Below, piece by piece: positions 45,901 to 51,900 of a stretch of DNA of 54,681 bases. Source of the stretch: Planctomycetota bacterium (GTDB lineage Bacteria; Planctomycetota; GCA-002687715; DRQF01); the NCBI GenBank assembly GCA_027001995.1, contig JALTLO010000078.1, positions 1-54,681 of the forward strand, given 5' to 3'. The stretch's first letter is position 1. Each line of letters begins with the position of its first letter. The position numbers were made by a program.

Positions 45901-48900
45901 TCCGTTCACACCAGTCCTTGGCCCAGTGAAGTTGACTTCGCGAAAGTGGAAGGTGATGCCCCCATCGAAGCCCTGACTATGGCAGTAGAAGTGACGTCAA
46001 AGATTCGCGGAGCCAAATCCGACGCACAAAAGAGTCTCCGATGGCCAGTGAGCGCTTTGTCCCTGACCGGATCACAAGACGCCATCGACGCCATCTCTTT
46101 GGTTCTTTCGGATGTTCTCGCCGCAGGCAACGTTCAAGACGATGCTTTCTCCACCACCCTGGGGGAAGCACCAGAAAACGAGCGATTGGGTGTGGAGGTG
46201 ACGTTGAGCCAAGAATCTAACCAAGACGCTTAGACGAGAACCAAGACTTGCCGTCCTCTTGAGGATTTCCTCAAGGGGACAGCCAAGCACATACAAAAAA
46301 ATTCCTTTGAACACACCTCTCCGATTTCCGTTACCTTTCTTGAGTGACAGATAATGGAAGCAGAGGCCAATGCGCAAAGACCAAACCCTTCTTCCCCTCA
46401 TCGTCGGCATCTTGCTCCTCTTGGGCAGCGCATTCTATGCCTTGCAGCAAGATGAAAGTGGCGACGTATTGGAAGAGACTCATCTCAAACGAAGTCTTCC
46501 CCCGCTCAACCAATCAAAAGCCAACGTTCCCTCCCATAAGGCTGGCCCTGGCGATCCAAACTCGAGAACTCCGCAAACGAGCCTCAAGCTGTCGCCAAAA
46601 TTTGCCCGCGACACGAAGCTCGATTTCGGCCCCGGGATTCTCTGCGGCGACTCCACCGTCACTTTCACTTTGCGGGACAAGAAGGGGCAACCCTTGATCG
46701 CCGAACAAATGATCGATATCCAACTCTGGCGCAAGTTGGGGAAATTTTGGATCCAAGAGAACGCCCATTTCGACAGGTCAAAATCCACTGCCATTTGCTC
46801 CGGCAGACTTGGCACGGGTTTGGAGCCTGGGGAATACGAGGTCGGTTTTCGTTGCGGAGGTTATGGAGCCTTATGGAAGAAATTCGCGGTCTCAACGGAT
46901 CAGCGCGTCATCATTCCAATTGAATTCCCCTATTGGCGGCGGATCATTGACTTGCACTATATGGGCGACAACAAAAAGCCGGTGCGATACTTGGCCACAA
47001 TTCCGAAATACGAGTTTACCCCACCCCAACTTCCCCCCCGAAAACGTAAGAAACCCGATCGCGTTCTTTCTTATCCCCCCATTTATAGCCAGTTCAACAC
47101 AACTATAGAAACATCGTCTGGCGGTGTTGGCTCCAGTTTTCTGGGTTACAGAAGACACAACCTTTCCTATTTGACAAGAAATGGGCACTGGTACTTAGAA
47201 GTTTTTGCTGGTTTGCCTGGAACCCTCAAGCAAGAGTTTAACTATAGAGCGACCGGCAGAAGAAACTTGGATGTACGTTCTCGTTTTCAGGAAGAAAAAT
47301 GGGATTCTCACAAGATCACAGTGAATTACACGAAAAAGCGCAAGGCGGATCTGGAGCACAGAAGCACGTCCAATCGTGTCAACAAGAACAACCCTGGCAA
47401 TGAAACGGTTCTTGACAGCAAGAAGAAATCGACTGTGAATCCGAACATACCTCCGGTTATTTCCATGGCATCGCGCATTCTCTTTGACGTCAATGGGGCT
47501 ATACCGGTCAGACCTCATATCGAGAACTCTCTCAATGCTAAGATCAGCCATTTGGATGTCACCTATTATGATCGGCGAGCACGCAAGTCGATGGGGACAT
47601 GGTACTCAGATATCTTTCCCGAGAAGTCCCGTGAAATCAGTTATTGGTATTCGGACGGGGCCCTCCTCAGAACCAAAAAGAAGACGAAACAATACCGGAA
47701 TATCTTCGACAACCAAAAATCGAGAATCGCAACCATACGGGATTCCATTGCAGCAAACCTCTGCATCTTGAGCATCGGCATGCCCACCCCCACAAGTCGC
47801 GCCTGGGCTCGGGGTTTGCGCGTTGGCTGGAAACTCAAACAAAGTCCCATCCATGGGCAAGAAATTCACCGCCCTGATGGCAAGGCTTTCACCGTTCGCT
47901 CTGCTCTTGCACTCGGTGAAGACGAAAACCAACCCCTTCCCGGAGATCTCGTCTATTCTTTCGTTGGTGAAGGTAACGGCCCGAGAGCCCGGCAGTCCAT
48001 CGAATTGACTGCGGAGCAGGAGAAATCACTTCGCGACGGCACTCTCGAGATTGAACCCCAAACAAAGGGAATTATCCTGCGGGCTATCGACGCCAACGGC
48101 GCTGGCCTGCCTTGGGTAGAAGGAAGTTTGATTCCCATCGACAGTCTCCACACGGCCATCAGTGTCAAGAAACACATGGGGCAATGGAAACGTGAAGCTC
48201 GCAAGGATCGTCACTACGACAACAGCTCGGTGCGGATCGATTTTTCCCCTGAAACTCAATATGGGGGCACATCCTTGGAAGAACCACTGGAGGATGAAGA
48301 AACAATCACAAGTTTCGTCGACACGCTTTCGGAGGAAAATCTGCGCCGACTCCTCAAAGGGGGCCTCTATGAAGAATTCTCCACTGACCAAGAAAGGCGC
48401 TTCTTCGCCAAGAATTACACTTGGTACAACACGCATCGCAAGTTCAAGTCGGACCGTCGAGGTTACCTCACCAATTGGAATCAAGTGGTGGAGCCCAACA
48501 AGCGCTACGCCCTTTTTCTTTGGTCCAACTCCAGAGACCATCTTGTTTCCGACTCGATGATTCTCTTTACCGCCAAAGAGGGTATAACAGACTTAGGAGT
48601 CGTGAGACTCCCCGACTATCAATGAATAGTCAGGAGCAAGGGAGAGCTGTTCTCGTCCACCAAGACTTCATCACTTTTCCACGCGCCCTTCCTCCCCTTG
48701 AGCGTATAACCCCGGCCTCGCTCTTGGCCGAGGTAGATCAAGAATTCCCCCTTCGAACCGGTCTCGACTTCCAGGGACTTGATCGACCTCTTCTTCACTT
48801 TCCTTTTTCCAGGAGCCTGGTAAGGAAAATAGACGGATGACAATTGGACCGAAGCTCCAGCCACTGGTATACCGCTGGCGTTCAACACTTGTCCTTCAAC

Positions 48901-51900
48901 TTCAACCGCAGGAAACTCTAGAACAACGTCTCCCAGATTTTGAAATGATCCCGGTTCATCTTGCTCGACTTTAAGAGACTTAACCCCTCTATGAGCTTCT
49001 CCGAAATCCCCGGCTACTCCTCGGCGCACAAAGAAATTCAAACGGTAAGCCCTGGCCAAGTCAAGTTGGAGATCTACATGCCCACTTCTGCCGACAACCG
49101 TTCTGACACGAGAAGGGCGAGGTCGGATGACGGGGTCCCTCAAATGCAGGTTCAAGCCCGTACTGACGGAAGACACATGAGGTAACCCAGAAAGAACTGG
49201 CGTCGCAACAACACCGATCATTGCGGGAGGAAAGGGCTTTCCCCTACGATCAACAACGTGCAGGAATACGGTAGACAACTGATCGCCAAAGGGAATAATC
49301 ATGGAAGGTGTTGACGGCTTGGGAGTCATTAACATTCTCGTCTCCACTCGTCCTTTGGCAGTCAACTTCCACGAGACCTTTTTTCCTGGCACCAACCCGC
49401 CGATTCGGACACTTGGGGTTGCCAATGGTAAGAACTGGCCGCCGGTTTCTCGTTGAGGAGCACCACCCTCGCCAATGAGCCAACTCAGATGAGCGTCAAA
49501 GGACTCTTCGCCCGGCCTGTTTGCTGTCACGACTTCCATGACCAGAGTCTTCGGTAAAGTGAAATTGAGCTGTAATTTCGGAGCATCCGTATCGCATGTT
49601 TGCCAAGGGATCTCTCCTCCTGTGAGTAGTGGCCCCACGGCCACAGTCCGTTTCCCTTCGACACCAACCGAAGCATAAAACTGAGCTAACCCTTGTGAAT
49701 CCGTCAGCAAACGTGCCCCGACCGGAGCACCATGGGGAATCCAACTTCAGCTCAAGTGGTGAGTCATAAGACGACCGGCGTCGGCCATAAAAACCGGTAT
49801 ATACGGGCAGGGGGTTTGGTCGGCATCGCGGCAGGAAACCGTGATCATCTTGTACGTTGATAACACCAAAGGCATAGGTGATTCCTTGGGGAGTCCGTCA
49901 TTGCCAAGAATGAGGAAAGCCATTTGCGATTTGCTCTTGGCGACAATCAGACCTCGGCGGCCATCAAGAAAGCGCTTTGGCAAAAGAAACGTCCCTGAGG
50001 GATTGGGCGATCCGGTCCAAAGCGGCTGATTGCGAGGCACCGGAATGGCAGCGATCGTCGCTGCGTGGCTGTTCTCGCTGGCGAAGACAGAAATAGAGAC
50101 GGCACTCAGATCTTCCCCAACCGCCCCCTCCACCATCAGCTCAGCCTGCCCAAACCCTGGCAGCCCCATAACTGATAGCACCAGCAGCAACCTCAAAACT
50201 TGAATTCTCATTCCCTCAGTCCTTTCGGTTTGACTTCGAACACCAGTGTAGTGCCAAGCATCCGAACAGGTCGAGCAAAATTTGCTTCCGAGACCCAAGA
50301 GACAAAAGCGTTACAGAGTGCATAAGAAAAGCCCAAGCATAAGCTTGGGCTTTGATCATCTTATGACCCCGAGGGGATTTGAACCCCTGTTGCAAGGATG
50401 AGAACCTTGTGTCCTAACCTGACTAGACGACGGGGCCGTCAAGTGGCGTATAATAGGCAGGGGAGTTGTGGCCTTCAAGAGAAGGCTTCCCCGAATCTAA
50501 ATTACTGGGCTTCCTCTTCTTTCCTGGCCGCTTCCAAAGCAGATTCGATTCGTCTTTTGCACTCCTCTGCTCCCAAGAGCTGAGCGCAGTCAAAAAGTCC
50601 AGGACCAGAAGTGCGACGAGTCAATGCTGCCCGCAGAGGATGAACAATCTTGCCGAAACCCACTCCCTGAGACTCAACCCATGCCCTGGCTTTCGCCTCC
50701 AATCCCCCAGGATCTGAAAAATCTCCGGCCAAAAGAATCGGGGCGAAAGCTTCCAGCAAATCGGCGGCACCGTCCTTTTTGAGATTCTTGAGAGCTTTTT
50801 TCTCGAATTCCAAAGAACCGTCGAACACCCAATCCACCAACTCAGTCACTTGACCAAAGTAGCGCAATCGATCCTGCTCCGAGGCTGCAATGAGCTCGAG
50901 CTTCTCGACTTCATCTGGAGTTGGATTTTCTGCAATCCAACCGGCGGCAACGAGATGAGGGCGAATGCCTTCGATAACCTCTTCTCGACTCATGCGCCGG
51001 ATATAGTCGCCGCAGATCCAATCGAGTTTCTCCATGGGCAAACGTGCCCCTGCAGAATTGACACGATCAAAGGAAAAACGCTCAATCAATTCGTCCCGGG
51101 TCATGACTTCTGTCTTGTCGTCAAATGACCATCCCACAAGGGCTAACCAGTTGACCAGACCATCAATGGGATATCCCTTGTTCTGATAGAGTTCCAATGC
51201 AGCTTCCGGATGCTTGCGTTTCGAAAGCTTCCCCTGCCCCGTTGGCCCAAGGATCAAGGGGAGATGAGCAAAGATAGGCGTATCCCAACCAAATGCTTCA
51301 TAGATCACCAGTTGCTTGAACGTGTTAGTGAGATGATCTTCACCCCGCACGACATGACTGATTTCCATGAGGTGGTCATCAACGACCACCGCGAAATTGT
51401 AGATCGGAATCCCCGTAGCTCGAATCAAAATGATGTCTTCAATGTCCTTCGACTTAACCGTGACATCACCACGAATCAGATCCTTCACCACGTAATCCTT
51501 GCCCTCCGGAACCTTCAAACGCCAAGTGTGCTCCTCTCCAAAAGCAATCCTTGCAGCAGAATCTGCTTGAGGAATGTCCCGACATTTTTGGTCGTAGCGC
51601 ATGGTCTCCTTATTGTCTTTTTGGCTTTGGCGAAGCTCAGACAATCGATCACGGCTGCAAAAACAGGGATAGATCGCCCCGGTCTCCTTCATTTTTTCGC
51701 CGTATTCGACGTAAATATCTTGGCGCTCGCTCTGGGAATAAGGGCCAAAATCACCCCCTTGCTCCGGCCCTTCGTCTGGGGTGAATCCCAGCCAATCCAT
51801 GCCACGAAAGATCGTCTCCCGGGCAGCATCGGTGTTTCTTTCCTTATCCGTGTCTTCCATCCGAAGAACCAACTTGCCGCCTACTTGTTTGGCATAAAGC

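What a model noticed while it worked through the whole genome (the two positions that open the first line are those of the whole stretch)
48619..50211. Secreted 530-aa protein of no known family with a conserved selenocysteine (H-L-S-U-S-W)
g01582 and g01581 are one 530-aa signal-peptide protein without any Pfam or NCBIfam family, read through UGA at codon 155. The UGA and a SECIS-like hairpin are kept in both other species of the genus although the proteins are only 32% identical, so this is a fast-evolving, genus-restricted selenoprotein.
Evidence so far: One frame, 1 TGA. Both same-genus genomes have a match (E 5e-53, 2e-52; 32% identity), each with one in-frame TGA; 0 of 3 more distant genomes matched. 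In the alignment the three U are in one column ([HR]-H-[LF]-[SG]-U) followed by the conserved A-P-V-G-A-R, which is encoded by the hairpin GUGCUCC-GGUC-GGGGCAC / GAGCUCC-GGUC-GGAGCUC 19 nt after UGA (paired changes). No NCBIfam hit at E<=0.01.
(Added by a program. Inside this text positions count along the whole contig: contig position 1 is position 1 of the stretch shown here. "Call 12" and the like, gene names such as g00115 and contig names such as C1 are that model's own, and its searches are not shown. The text may have been shortened before it was handed on; [...] marks where a part breaks off. The agent that wrote the report below was given it as the finding of a first reader that could run no searches.)

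Follow-up and report, generated by a model that had tools for sequence, protein, structure and literature searches.

The report
New secreted selenoprotein without cysteine relatives
Two adjacent "genes" of an uncultured planctomycete are really one gene for a secreted protein with selenocysteine at an internal stop codon, and it belongs to a small, fast-changing family with no known cysteine version.

Summary
Window 48622..50211 (minus strand) is one 530-codon frame with a single in-frame TGA at codon 155 (49747-49749).

- **Hairpin:** 16 nt after the TGA lies a 7-bp hairpin with a GGUC loop. It meets all four constraints of the published bacterial SECIS model.
- **Machinery:** the genome carries tRNA-Sec, selA, selB and a TGA-containing selD.
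- **Same-genus genomes:** both keep the TGA in the same column and keep the hairpin. Synonymous sites are frozen in the 5' arm and loop, and one stem pair changed on both sides. These proteins are 30-32% identical; the adjacent gltX is 82-84%.
- **Wider search:** a profile search of 1.84 billion proteins found only fragments of this family. All 6 N-terminal fragments end exactly before the TGA, and no form with Cys spans the site. A seventh fragment (P0012) ends there too.
- **Fold:** a secreted chain of transthyretin/CnaB-like beta-sandwich domains. Sec sits on a low-confidence loop next to invariant His152.
- **Nearest non-Sec relative:** a 630-aa protein of another genus has a His-rich loop (HHDH) there; Sec aligns to His or to a gap.

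I read this as a genuine new selenoprotein family. Its chemistry is unknown; my favoured guess is a His/Sec metal or redox site.

Other new secreted planctomycete selenoprotein families have been noted on other DNA.

The parts
48622..50211 (-). Single coding sequence of 530 codons, now called as two ORFs. The stop TGA at 48619-48621 is followed directly by TAG.
   Evidence: Protein-level conservation runs in frame across the TGA in three genomes.
50149..50211 (-). Codons 1-21: N-terminal signal peptide (M-R, a hydrophobic core, then small-x-small before the invariant Gln22).
   Evidence: Read by eye; no signal-peptide predictor was run. Q22 is invariant in 7 of 7 N-terminal sequences.
49747..49749 (-). 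In-frame TGA, codon 155, read as selenocysteine.
   Evidence: Same alignment column in G001 and G002. Seven gene-called fragments end just before it.
49756..49758 (-). Codon of His152, three residues before Sec (H-x-x-U). Invariant.
   Evidence: Invariant in 7 of 7 family N-termini, and also in the 8-row alignment that adds the remote G004 homologue.
49731..49746 (-). 16-nt spacer between the UGA and the hairpin. It contains the invariant CCC codon of Pro159.
49713..49730 (-). SECIS-type hairpin: 5' arm 49730-49724, GGUC loop 49723-49720, 3' arm 49719-49713. It encodes part of G-A-P-V-G-A-R.
   Evidence: Centroid fold of -12.1 kcal/mol. Kept in G001 and G002. Synonymous sites frozen. Other Sec genes of this genome have the same loop.
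49549..49857 (-). Residues about 119-221: second beta-sandwich domain (transthyretin/CnaB/carboxypeptidase-regulatory-like). It carries the Sec loop as an insertion between a short helix and the next strand.
   Evidence: AF2 model of residues 22-235: pLDDT 81.1, with the loop 154-161 below 50. VIA-align Z 9.3-8.0 to SlaB, CnaB2 and carboxypeptidase D domain II.
48835..48900 (-). Residues 438-459: weak CarboxypepD_reg-like match in the C-terminal domain.
   Evidence: PF13620 at E 0.0096, 16.7 bits, below the cut-off. The G002 orthologue scores 21.7 bits at the matching place.
46370..48625 (+). Convergent neighbour: a 751-aa exported or anchored protein with no Pfam family. Its stop overlaps the end of the Sec gene by 7 nt. 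A link to the Sec gene is possible but not shown.
   Evidence: A homologue is adjacent in G002, but in G001 the homologue lies beside thrC with no Sec gene.

Best explanation
This is one gene for a secreted protein of 530 residues.

**Decoding.** The ribosome reads UGA155 as selenocysteine. A 7-bp hairpin with a GGUC loop, 16 nt downstream and inside the coding sequence, would recruit SelB with Sec-tRNA(Sec), as in other bacterial selenoprotein genes.

**Shown:**
- one frame with one in-frame TGA;
- the TGA and hairpin are conserved, with constraint at the RNA level;
- the genome has the full Sec machinery;
- no Cys form turned up in a very large search.

**Inferred from models:** the mature protein is a string of transthyretin/CnaB-like beta-sandwich domains, a scaffold typical of surface or periplasmic structural proteins. 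The second domain carries a flexible 15-residue loop bearing His152-x-x-Sec155.

**Inferred, about 35% odds:** His152 and Sec155 form an exposed ligand pair for a soft metal ion. The only recognisable homologue without Sec has H-H-D-H in that loop, with Sec aligned to His. His/Sec exchange is typical of metal ligands rather than of thiol-redox centres.

**Next most likely, about 30% odds:** a lone reactive selenol acts in extracytoplasmic redox chemistry.
For: **Gene and UGA**
- Searches show one frame with one internal TGA.
- TGA is an ordinary stop elsewhere. It ends this gene and the neighbour, so the genetic code is not reassigned.

**Sec machinery**
- tRNA-Sec at 68.2 bits against a cut-off of 47, anticodon TCA.
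- selB at 334 bits and selA at 511 bits.
- selD at 357 bits, with its own TGA.

**SECIS fit**
The model constraints come from the Fig. 2 legend passage of PMC13188914.
- Loop of 4 nt and stem of 7 bp.
- G-G-U at the start of the loop.
- 23 nt between the UGA and the loop.
- Hairpin energy of -12.1 kcal/mol.
- GGUC-loop hairpins also follow the TGA of five other genes of this genome that have U-x-x-C motifs: WUGPC three times, UPPC and UPNC.

**Conservation**
- TGA sits in one column in 3 of 3 genomes with DNA available.
- 36 columns are invariant with four-fold degenerate codons. The codon is identical in all three genomes in 4 of the 6 columns at residues 159-166, against 4 of the 30 elsewhere.
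- The two varying third positions there are the ones that pair across the stem: U-A becomes A-U, and U-G becomes U-A.
- Residues 150-179 are the best-conserved 20-residue windows, with 50% invariant columns against 20% overall.

**No Cys form**
- 8 hits in 1.84 billion representatives. 6 of the 6 N-terminal hits end at profile position 154.
- A seventh fragment, P0012 at 90% identity, ends the same way.
- One low-depth contig from a second study (run X3) covers the TGA, differs from the window at 12 of 92 bases, and lists no change at the TGA.

**Fold**.

**His-rich loop of the G004 homologue**.
Against: - There is no experimental evidence of selenium incorporation or of expression.
- The DNA of five of the eight lineages could not be fetched. 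For them the stop is known only from where the gene calls end, so neither its identity (TGA) nor the hairpin was seen.
- The G001 hairpin has a U-C mismatch.
- The 60-nt folds are no more stable than shuffles, with z of 0.35, -1.58 and -0.18.
- No Rfam SECIS family matches.
- The genome-wide count is weak on its own. 6 of 165 GGTC-loop hairpins follow an open-frame TGA, against 431 of 36,369 for all tetraloops, and several other loops score as high. Only the make-up of the six is telling.
- A-P-V-G-A-R could be conserved partly for the protein, since G-A-R is kept in the non-Sec homologue.

For the metal-site idea specifically:
- It rests on one remote homologue (BLASTP E 2e-6, hhalign probability 89.7%).
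- MAFFT puts a gap opposite Sec there, not a His.
- The loop is modelled at pLDDT below 50.
- No metal-related genes lie nearby.
- A still more remote match in G016 has a short loop with neither His nor Cys.
Confidence: 0.8

Rival explanations
1. Same gene and same Sec decoding, but the selenol is a redox centre, not a metal ligand. A lone, exposed Sec would be oxidised by peroxide or disulfide substrates outside the cytoplasm. The secreted thioredoxin-like (TlpA-type) selenoproteins of the same organism would then re-reduce it.
For: Most bacterial selenoproteins are redox enzymes (passages of PMC13188914). The genome encodes at least three TlpA-like W-U-G-P-C proteins and other U-x-x-C proteins. 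Earlier notes on this genome report AhpD-like and Trx7/PDZ selenoproteins. A flexible loop suits contact with a partner.
Against: No Cys is conserved near Sec or anywhere in the N-terminal 154 residues, so there is no resolving partner. There is no thioredoxin, peroxiredoxin or GPx fold; the scaffold is a structural beta-sandwich. The non-Sec homologue has His or a gap at the site, not Cys, Ser or Thr.
Confidence: 0.3
2. The UGA is read through or paused at by a mechanism without Sec. The hairpin would promote near-cognate decoding or regulated termination, giving both a 154-residue and a 530-residue product.
For: Selenium incorporation is unproven. Gene callers produce a 154-aa product in every lineage. 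The hairpin is small, and the 60-nt region is not unusually stable.
Against: The hairpin fits the SECIS model and carries the same GGUC loop as five U-x-x-C genes of the genome. The full Sec machinery is present. A 154-residue product would end in the middle of the second beta-sandwich domain.
Confidence: 0.06
3. These are two separate genes: a 154-aa secreted protein ending at TGA, and an independent downstream gene of about 340-363 aa. The hairpin would serve another purpose.
For: This is how all public gene calls read it.
Against: The called starts of the downstream piece differ between lineages: profile position 182 for P0010 (G002), 190 for P0003, and codon 168 for the window's own table-11 ORF. 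The 26 residues between the TGA and those starts are the best-conserved part of the protein, in frame, in three genomes. The frame is kept in 3 of 3 genomes at 30-32% identity. The TGA falls inside one predicted domain.
Confidence: 0.04
4. This is a decaying gene: a nonsense mutation in a dispensable surface protein.
For: The protein evolves very fast, and the locus is rearranged between congeners.
Against: The same stop column is kept in eight lineages down to about 27-41% identity. There are no other stops or frameshifts in 530 codons. Downstream conservation continues in frame.
Confidence: 0.02

Closest known systems
Bacterial SECIS-dependent selenoprotein genes (type case: E. coli fdhF; consensus bSECIS model of Zhang and Gladyshev as given in PMC13188914)
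   Same: An in-frame UGA is followed within the coding sequence by a small hairpin with G-G-U at the start of the apical loop, at the allowed spacing and energy. selA, selB, selD and tRNA-Sec are present. The gene is split by gene callers.
   Different: The protein has no U-x-x-C or C-x-x-U motif, no neighbouring Cys, and no Cys-containing homologue in 1.84 billion representatives. By contrast, the deep-Sep paper states that all known selenoproteins now seem to have Cys homologues (passage of PMC12013277).
DUF1573 domain-containing selenoprotein (PF07610, UGC motif), listed in the family table of PMC13188914
   Same: It is another selenoprotein family outside the thioredoxin-type folds. From recall and not tested here, DUF1573 is an Ig-like domain common in Planctomycetota.
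   Different: There is no PF07610 hit at E<=1. The motif is H-x-x-U, not U-G-C, and there is no adjacent Cys.
CarboxypepD_reg / transthyretin-like and CnaB-type beta-sandwich domains (PF13620; carboxypeptidase D domain II 1qmu; CnaB2 8bdw; SlaB 8qox)
   Same: The fold of the Sec-bearing domain matches: Z 9.3 (rmsd 2.3 over 88 residues), 9.1 and 8.0. The multi-domain, secreted layout also matches. The sequence matches PF13620 weakly in the C-terminal domain.
   Different: The sequence scores fall below Pfam's cut-off. These domains are non-catalytic spacers or adhesin stalks with no reactive residue. Here a 15-residue loop with His and Sec is inserted. The tool warns that Z of 7-8 is common for unmatched models, so Z of 9 shows a shared fold only.
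630-aa hypothetical protein of a Planctomycetota MAG in another genus of the same family (P0011; G004, L036:1333-3222)
   Same: It is the only recognisable homologue that reads through the site: BLASTP E 2e-6 and 27% identity over 272 columns, hhalign probability 89.7%. It has the same two N-terminal domains, the same W-x-P and G-A-R-x-L-T-D-x-x-G-x-A-x-F after the loop, and His152 is conserved.
   Different: It has no TGA and no Cys. The loop reads I-H-H-D-H-L-W. Sec aligns to His or to a gap. It is itself a singleton in the 5.8-billion-protein word search.

Membership tests
Bacterial selenoprotein gene (SECIS-directed UGA decoding) | An in-frame UGA conserved at one alignment column among homologues | tested here: met
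   TGA in the same column in 3 of 3 genomes with DNA. Seven gene-called fragments end at that column.
Bacterial selenoprotein gene (SECIS-directed UGA decoding) | bSECIS model: 3-9 nt loop, 4-16 bp stem, G in the first two loop positions, 16-37 nt from the UGA to the loop, MFE <= -7.5 kcal/mol (PMC13188914 Fig. 2 legend) | tested here: met
   Loop GGUC, 7 bp, 23 nt spacing, -12.1 kcal/mol centroid. G002 meets it. G001 meets it with a 5-bp upper stem after one mismatch.
Bacterial selenoprotein gene (SECIS-directed UGA decoding) | The organism has tRNA-Sec, SelA, SelB and SelD | tested here: met
   all above the curated cut-offs. selB was also found in G001 and G002.
Bacterial selenoprotein gene (SECIS-directed UGA decoding) | Cys-containing homologues with Cys aligned to the UGA (the criterion used by Cys/Sec-pair methods) | tested here: not met
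   None among 8 hits in 1,835,955,588 representatives, nor in the word-index searches. The remote homologue has His or a gap there.
Bacterial selenoprotein gene (SECIS-directed UGA decoding) | Selenium demonstrably incorporated at the UGA | not testable with these tools
   Needs 75Se labelling or mass spectrometry.
Catalogued selenoprotein families (NCBIfam NF04xxxx and TIGR models listed in PMC13188914) | A match to a curated family model | tested here: not met
   0 NCBIfam families at E<=1. Pfam gives only two sub-threshold beta-sandwich matches.
CarboxypepD_reg (PF13620) | A score at or above Pfam's gathering threshold (32.3 bits) | tested here: not met
   16.7 bits for this protein and 21.7 bits for the G002 orthologue.
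CarboxypepD_reg (PF13620) | A transthyretin-like seven-strand beta-sandwich fold | tested here: inconclusive
   Z 8.0 to 1qmu domain II, 7.4 to 5aq0 and 6.7 to transthyretin. This is only slightly above the Z of 7-8 that the tool reports as typical for unmatched models.
CnaB-type pilin or adhesin domains with an intramolecular isopeptide | A Lys-Asn/Asp isopeptide triad with a catalytic Glu/Asp | not tested
   Only fold similarity was seen.

The most novel reading that the evidence does not exclude
This would be a selenoprotein family that never had a cysteine form. Selenocysteine arose by replacing a histidine metal ligand on an exposed loop of a structural beta-sandwich domain. The result is a secreted His/selenolate site that captures or senses a soft metal such as Cu(I), Hg, Ag or Cd at hydrothermal vents. 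If so, it would be the first His-to-Sec exchange and the first Sec-only extracytoplasmic metal-binding protein. It would also show that Cys/Sec-pair searches systematically miss a class of selenoproteins.
Probability: 0.15. Interest if true: 0.85.

Novelty: new variant of a known kind. Interest (0 to 1): 0.58.

Why it matters
**Detection methods.** Selenoprotein catalogues are largely built by pairing UGA with Cys in homologues. The authors of deep-Sep state that their method may miss selenoproteins lacking Cys homologues, and that all known ones now seem to have them (PMC12013277, passage seen). This family has a conserved UGA, a well-behaved SECIS and full machinery, but no Cys form in 1.84 billion proteins. 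It is therefore a concrete test case for whether Sec-only families exist.

**Biology.** Sec here sits on a non-enzymatic, adhesin-like beta-sandwich scaffold outside the cytoplasm, with no redox motif. That widens the range of contexts in which Sec is used. The aligned His in the nearest relative makes a metal-ligand role directly testable.

**Annotation.** Every public gene call on record here (P0002-P0010, P0012) cuts the gene into pieces.

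Tried and rejected
**Searches that found nothing useful**
- Two pattern scans of JGI metagenome contigs (alignments A1 and A4) gave 379 and 265 pattern matches, none confirmed. One attempt with A3 was rejected as too divergent. The DNA of P0006-P0009 was therefore never seen.
- A scan of one genome per species returned only the two congeners.
- A profile search of all 23 genomes held for the order gave three extra weak matches (E 7.6e-5 to 7.5e-4), without stops, in G016, G004 and G013.
- An Rfam E-value scan of 49600-49850 matched no SECIS family; the best hits were unrelated, at E>=0.23.
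- A PDB sequence search with the family profile found nothing below E 0.18.
- Foldseek gave only generic tandem beta-sandwich proteins at TM 0.15-0.36. I do not read the top hit, a thioester-domain TIE protein, as evidence for a thioester-like bond.

**The neighbouring 751-aa gene as a partner**
- It has no similarity to the Sec protein (E 0.34).
- No Cys is invariant among 6 homologues.
- It is adjacent in G000 and G002, but the G001 orthologue lies next to thrC without a Sec gene. I dropped the 'conserved pair' idea.
- The ESM Atlas gave only leads for the neighbour, scoring 0.89 or less (CarboxypepD_reg clusters).

**Other checks**
- The genome-wide GGTC-loop count was rejected as a statistic after the control.
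- Sequencing runs: no RNA holder is listed. The stretch is held by contigs of hydrothermal-vent metagenome runs of one study, which may include the source sample. A low-depth variant contig of a second study is held as well.
- No binding prediction was run.

Full report

Yes. On the minus strand, 50211 to 48622 is one open frame of 530 codons. It is broken only by a TGA at 49749-49747, codon 155, in the context M-T-H-H-L-S-U-S-W-I-P-H-G-A-P-V-G-A-R. The frame ends at another TGA (48621-48619), followed directly by TAG. The convergent neighbour also ends in TGA. TGA is therefore an ordinary stop in this organism and the code is not reassigned.

Sixteen nucleotides after the internal TGA lies GUGCUCC-GGUC-GGGGCAC (49730-49713). 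It is the centroid structure when 60 nt are folded, at -12.1 kcal/mol. Pfam gives only sub-threshold beta-sandwich matches: PF13620 at 16.7 bits against a cut-off of 32.3, and Big_1. NCBIfam gives nothing at E<=1.

**2. Can the organism make selenoproteins?**

Yes. The genome is 5.22 Mb in 204 contigs and 92% complete. All components score above their curated cut-offs.

| Component | Evidence |
|---|---|
| tRNA-Sec | 68.2 bits against a cut-off of 47; ARAGORN gives SeC, anticodon TCA |
| selB | 334 bits |
| selA | 511 bits |
| selD | 357 bits, with its own in-frame TGA |

selA, selD and the tRNA-Sec gene cluster together on contig C148. Earlier notes of this scan report an AhpD-like, a Trx7/PDZ and a formate dehydrogenase selenoprotein gene elsewhere in this genome. 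I did not re-check those three.

My own crude scan looked for TGA with open frames on both sides plus a G-U-loop hairpin. It found clear U-x-x-C genes: W-U-G-P-C three times, U-P-P-C, U-P-N-C and others.

**3. Does the hairpin behave like a SECIS?**

The bacterial SECIS model has four constraints. I read them in the Fig. 2 legend passage of PMC13188914. The hairpin meets all four.

| Constraint | Required | Found here |
|---|---|---|
| Apical loop | 3-9 nt | 4 nt |
| Upper stem | 4-16 bp | 7 bp |
| UGA to loop | 16-37 nt | 23 nt |
| Energy | <= -7.5 kcal/mol | -12.1 kcal/mol |

The U-x-x-C genes of this genome carry the same GGUC tetraloop. One example is CACGAGC-GGUC-GCUCGUG in the TlpA-like genes. 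selD has a related G-U-C loop.

One control weakens part of the argument. Across the genome, 6 of 165 GGTC-loop hairpins with stems of at least 6 bp follow a TGA that has 50 open codons on each side. For all tetraloops the figure is 431 of 36,369, and several other loops reach similar fractions. The count alone is therefore not significant. What is informative is that five of the six GGTC cases are U-x-x-C genes and the sixth is this one. No Rfam SECIS family matches. The 60-nt folds are no more stable than shuffles.

**4. Conservation in relatives**

I searched 41 genomes (the window's own plus 40 relatives). Ten matched. Only the own genome and both congeners, G001 and G002, match over the N-terminal part, and each has exactly one TGA. 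Their record titles say only 'MAG: Planctomycetota bacterium'.

The other seven matches cover C-terminal residues only, about 187-516 or less, in frames of 950-1330 aa without stops. The three TGAs fall in one alignment column.

The hairpins compare as follows:
- G002 has GAGCUCC-GGUC-GGAGCUC, fully paired. The second pair changed from U-A to A-U, and the fifth from U-G to U-A.
- G001 has GUGCUCC-GGUC-GGAGCCC, with a U-C mismatch at the second pair.

The stem is built so that third codon positions pair with each other. That allows a test which separates RNA constraint from protein constraint. There are 36 columns that are invariant and use four-fold degenerate codons. The codon itself is identical in all three genomes at residues 159, 162, 163 and 164. 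That is 4 of the 6 such columns in residues 159-166, against 4 of the 30 elsewhere. The two third positions that do vary, in codons 165 and 166, are the partners of codons 162 and 161 in the stem.

Residues 150-179 are the most conserved 20-residue windows of the protein, with 50% invariant columns against 20% overall. Part of that is RNA constraint.

**5. How fast does it evolve, and how wide is the family?**

The three orthologues are 30-32% identical. gltX next door is 84% and 82% identical in the same genomes. The 751-aa neighbour is 49%, 43% and 34% identical. 'Fast-evolving' is therefore justified.

I ran a profile of residues 1-229 (alignment A2) with HMMER against 1,835,955,588 representative proteins. 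It returned 8 hits at E<=0.001.
- Six are N-terminal pieces of 152-193 aa that all end at profile position 154, just before the TGA, with ...[HR]-H-L-S.
- Two are C-terminal pieces.

A word-index search of shorter proteins added P0012. It is 90% identical, lies on a 28,339-bp NCBI contig together with P0003, and also ends ...H-H-L-S.

Counting G001 (from DNA), that makes eight lineages with a stop in the same column. P0006 to P0009 come from short ENA or Logan contigs. For five lineages the stop is therefore inferred from the gene calls, and neither its identity nor the hairpin was seen.

One low-depth contig of a second study (run X3, record 7) covers 49691-49782 with 12 differences. It lists none at the TGA. 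It changes codon 154 from Ser to Gly, the residue G001 has there. I treat this as weak.

No protein with Cys, or any other residue, spanning the site was found in the family.

**6. What is the protein?**

*Signal peptide.* The N-terminus looks like a signal peptide: M-R, a hydrophobic core, then small-x-small before an invariant Gln22. I read this by eye, without a predictor.

*Models.* The full-length AlphaFold2 model from three sequences was poor, at pLDDT 56, but all-beta. A model of residues 22-235 from eight sequences was usable, at pLDDT 81.1 and pTM 0.78. It shows two beta-sandwich domains. Residues 154-161, which include Sec155, are the only stretch below pLDDT 50. They lie in a 15-residue loop between a short helix (145-150) and the next strand (166-169).

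*Fold comparison.* Foldseek matches tandem CnaB/Ig-like proteins: Gram-positive pilins, a TIE protein, Cna B repeats, archaeal SlaB and complement MG domains. The TM scores are low, as expected when whole multi-domain chains are compared. VIA-align against 48,161 chains matches the Sec-bearing domain (model residues about 98-200) as follows.

| Chain | Description | Z | rmsd | Aligned residues |
|---|---|---|---|---|
| 8qox_B | SlaB | 9.3 | 2.3 | 88 |
| 3e8v_A | possible transglutaminase-family protein fragment | 9.2 | 2.2 | 80 |
| 8bdw_A | CnaB2 | 9.1 | 2.2 | 86 |
| 6hif_Y | small subunit of a planctomycete hydrazine dehydrogenase complex | 9.0 | 2.6 | 84 |
| 1qmu_A | carboxypeptidase D domain II | 8.0 | 2.3 | 76 |

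The tool warns that Z of 7-8 is common for unmatched models. This shows a shared transthyretin-like fold and nothing about function.

*Reading.* The protein is a secreted chain of structural beta-sandwich domains with a special loop.

**7. A homologue without Sec**

The N-terminal profile also hit a 630-aa ORF of G004 weakly (E 1.1e-4). G004 is in the same family but another genus. The pairwise scores are BLASTP E 2e-6 with 27% identity over 272 columns, and hhalign probability 89.7%.

Its loop reads ...A-I-H-H-D-H-L-W-R-P-S-A-H-E-G-A-R-R-L-T-D-D-R-G-R-A-D-F.
- With W-x-P anchored, as BLASTP does, His152 aligns to His and Sec155 aligns to His.
- MAFFT instead places a gap opposite Sec.
- Either way there is no Cys.

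That protein is itself a singleton in the 5.8-billion-protein word search. A still weaker match in G016 has a short loop with neither His nor Cys.

**8. Mechanism**

*Shown or strongly supported (my odds about 0.8-0.9).* This is one gene. UGA155 is decoded as Sec through a SECIS hairpin within the coding sequence.

*Inferred.* The chemistry of the site is unknown. There is no conserved Cys anywhere in the first 154 residues, no redox fold, an invariant His three residues upstream, and a His-rich loop in the only relative that reads through. I therefore favour a His/selenolate ligand pair for a metal, at about 35%. A lone redox-active selenol serviced by the organism's secreted thioredoxin-like selenoproteins comes next, at about 30%. 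The remainder is unknown or structural.

*Neighbour.* The 751-aa gene is not demonstrably a partner.
- It has no similarity to the Sec protein.
- It has no invariant Cys.
- It is adjacent in G000 and G002. In G001 its orthologue lies beside a threonine-synthase-like gene, tRNA-Glu and gltX, without the Sec gene, which sits on another contig.

**9. Comparison with what is known**

A 2026 review says more than 110 prokaryotic selenoprotein families are known, and I saw parts of its family table (PMC13188914; passages only). None of the listed names or NCBIfam/Pfam models matches this protein.

The deep-Sep paper says that all known selenoproteins now seem to have Cys homologues, and that the method may miss those that do not (PMC12013277; passages only).

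My claim that this family is not in print rests on three things:
- one full-text search;
- term look-ups in those two papers for 'carboxypeptidase', 'Planctomyc', 'Ig-like' and 'signal peptide', which gave 0 occurrences for each term tried;
- the empty NCBIfam scan.

I did not read supplementary tables, which could list it.

Several other 'new secreted selenoprotein families in Planctomycetota' have been noted on other genomes. The general theme therefore recurs, but those families carry Cys next to Sec or have Cys forms.

**10. Verdict**

This is a real selenoprotein gene and a new family, on an unusual scaffold. It is the rare case with no Cys counterpart. Its weaknesses are the small number of lineages, missing DNA for five of the eight, and an unknown function. 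Interest 0.58.

Noticed in passing
window 46370-48625 (+): A 751-aa protein with an N-terminal hydrophobic segment and no Pfam family lies convergent with the Sec gene and overlaps it by 7 nt. Homologues occur in 8 of 8 genomes of the taxonomic family searched, and G002 has two tandem copies. Invariant motifs include D-G-A-L-x-R, A-W-A-R and L-P-W-V-E. No Cys is invariant.
   Followed up: partly
G000 contig C148:21750-24409 (loci L001, L017, L018): selA, selD and the tRNA-Sec gene form one cluster. selD itself carries an in-frame TGA followed by a hairpin with a G-U-C loop 34 nt downstream.
   Followed up: partly
G000 contigs C138:6292, C43:43037, C105:26391, C44:5498, C141:105703, C58:27677, C86:28474, C27:3790 and 4141 (strand-specific positions as printed): A crude scan lists further in-frame TGAs with U-x-x-C-type motifs (W-U-G-P-C three times, U-P-P-C, U-P-N-C, W-U-G-P-C-K, P-U-K-N-C, G-U-K-G-C, M-S-U-Y-W) and G-U-loop hairpins. 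These look like the organism's wider selenoproteome. Four long frames with TGA (C55:5076, C49:27140, C43:59863, C105:40563) have no obvious motif and may be false positives.
   Followed up: no
window 49735-49737 (-), codon of Pro159, and 49731-49746: The CCC codon of Pro159 is identical in all three genomes. The spacer can form a small U-G-G...C-C-A helix in G000 and G002 but not clearly in G001. It may be an accessory part of the SECIS, or chance.
   Followed up: no
window 50146-50148 (-), codon of Gln22: Gln22, the predicted first residue of the mature protein, is invariant in 7 of 7 sequences although the flanks vary. An N-terminal pyroglutamate is possible.
   Followed up: no
window 50364-50437 (-) and 50325-50357: tRNA-Glu(CUC) lies between gltX and the Sec gene. 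It is followed by a perfect palindrome around AAGCTT with a T-run, which looks like its terminator, so the Sec gene probably has its own promoter. The simple terminator scan did not list it.
   Followed up: no
L039 (G001:C619) 3342-4649 and L021 (G002:C84) 197-1360: The locus is rearranged between congeners. A threonine-synthase-like gene lies between tRNA-Glu/gltX and the 751-aa gene in G001, and upstream of the Sec gene in G002. It is absent from this position in the window.
   Followed up: partly
runs X1-X4 laid on window 48619-50211: The stretch is held by contigs of hydrothermal-vent metagenome runs of one study, which may include the source sample. A second study holds a variant at low depth: a 92-nt contig with 12 differences (about 87% identical) and a 302-nt contig with 5 differences (about 98% identical).
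   Followed up: partly
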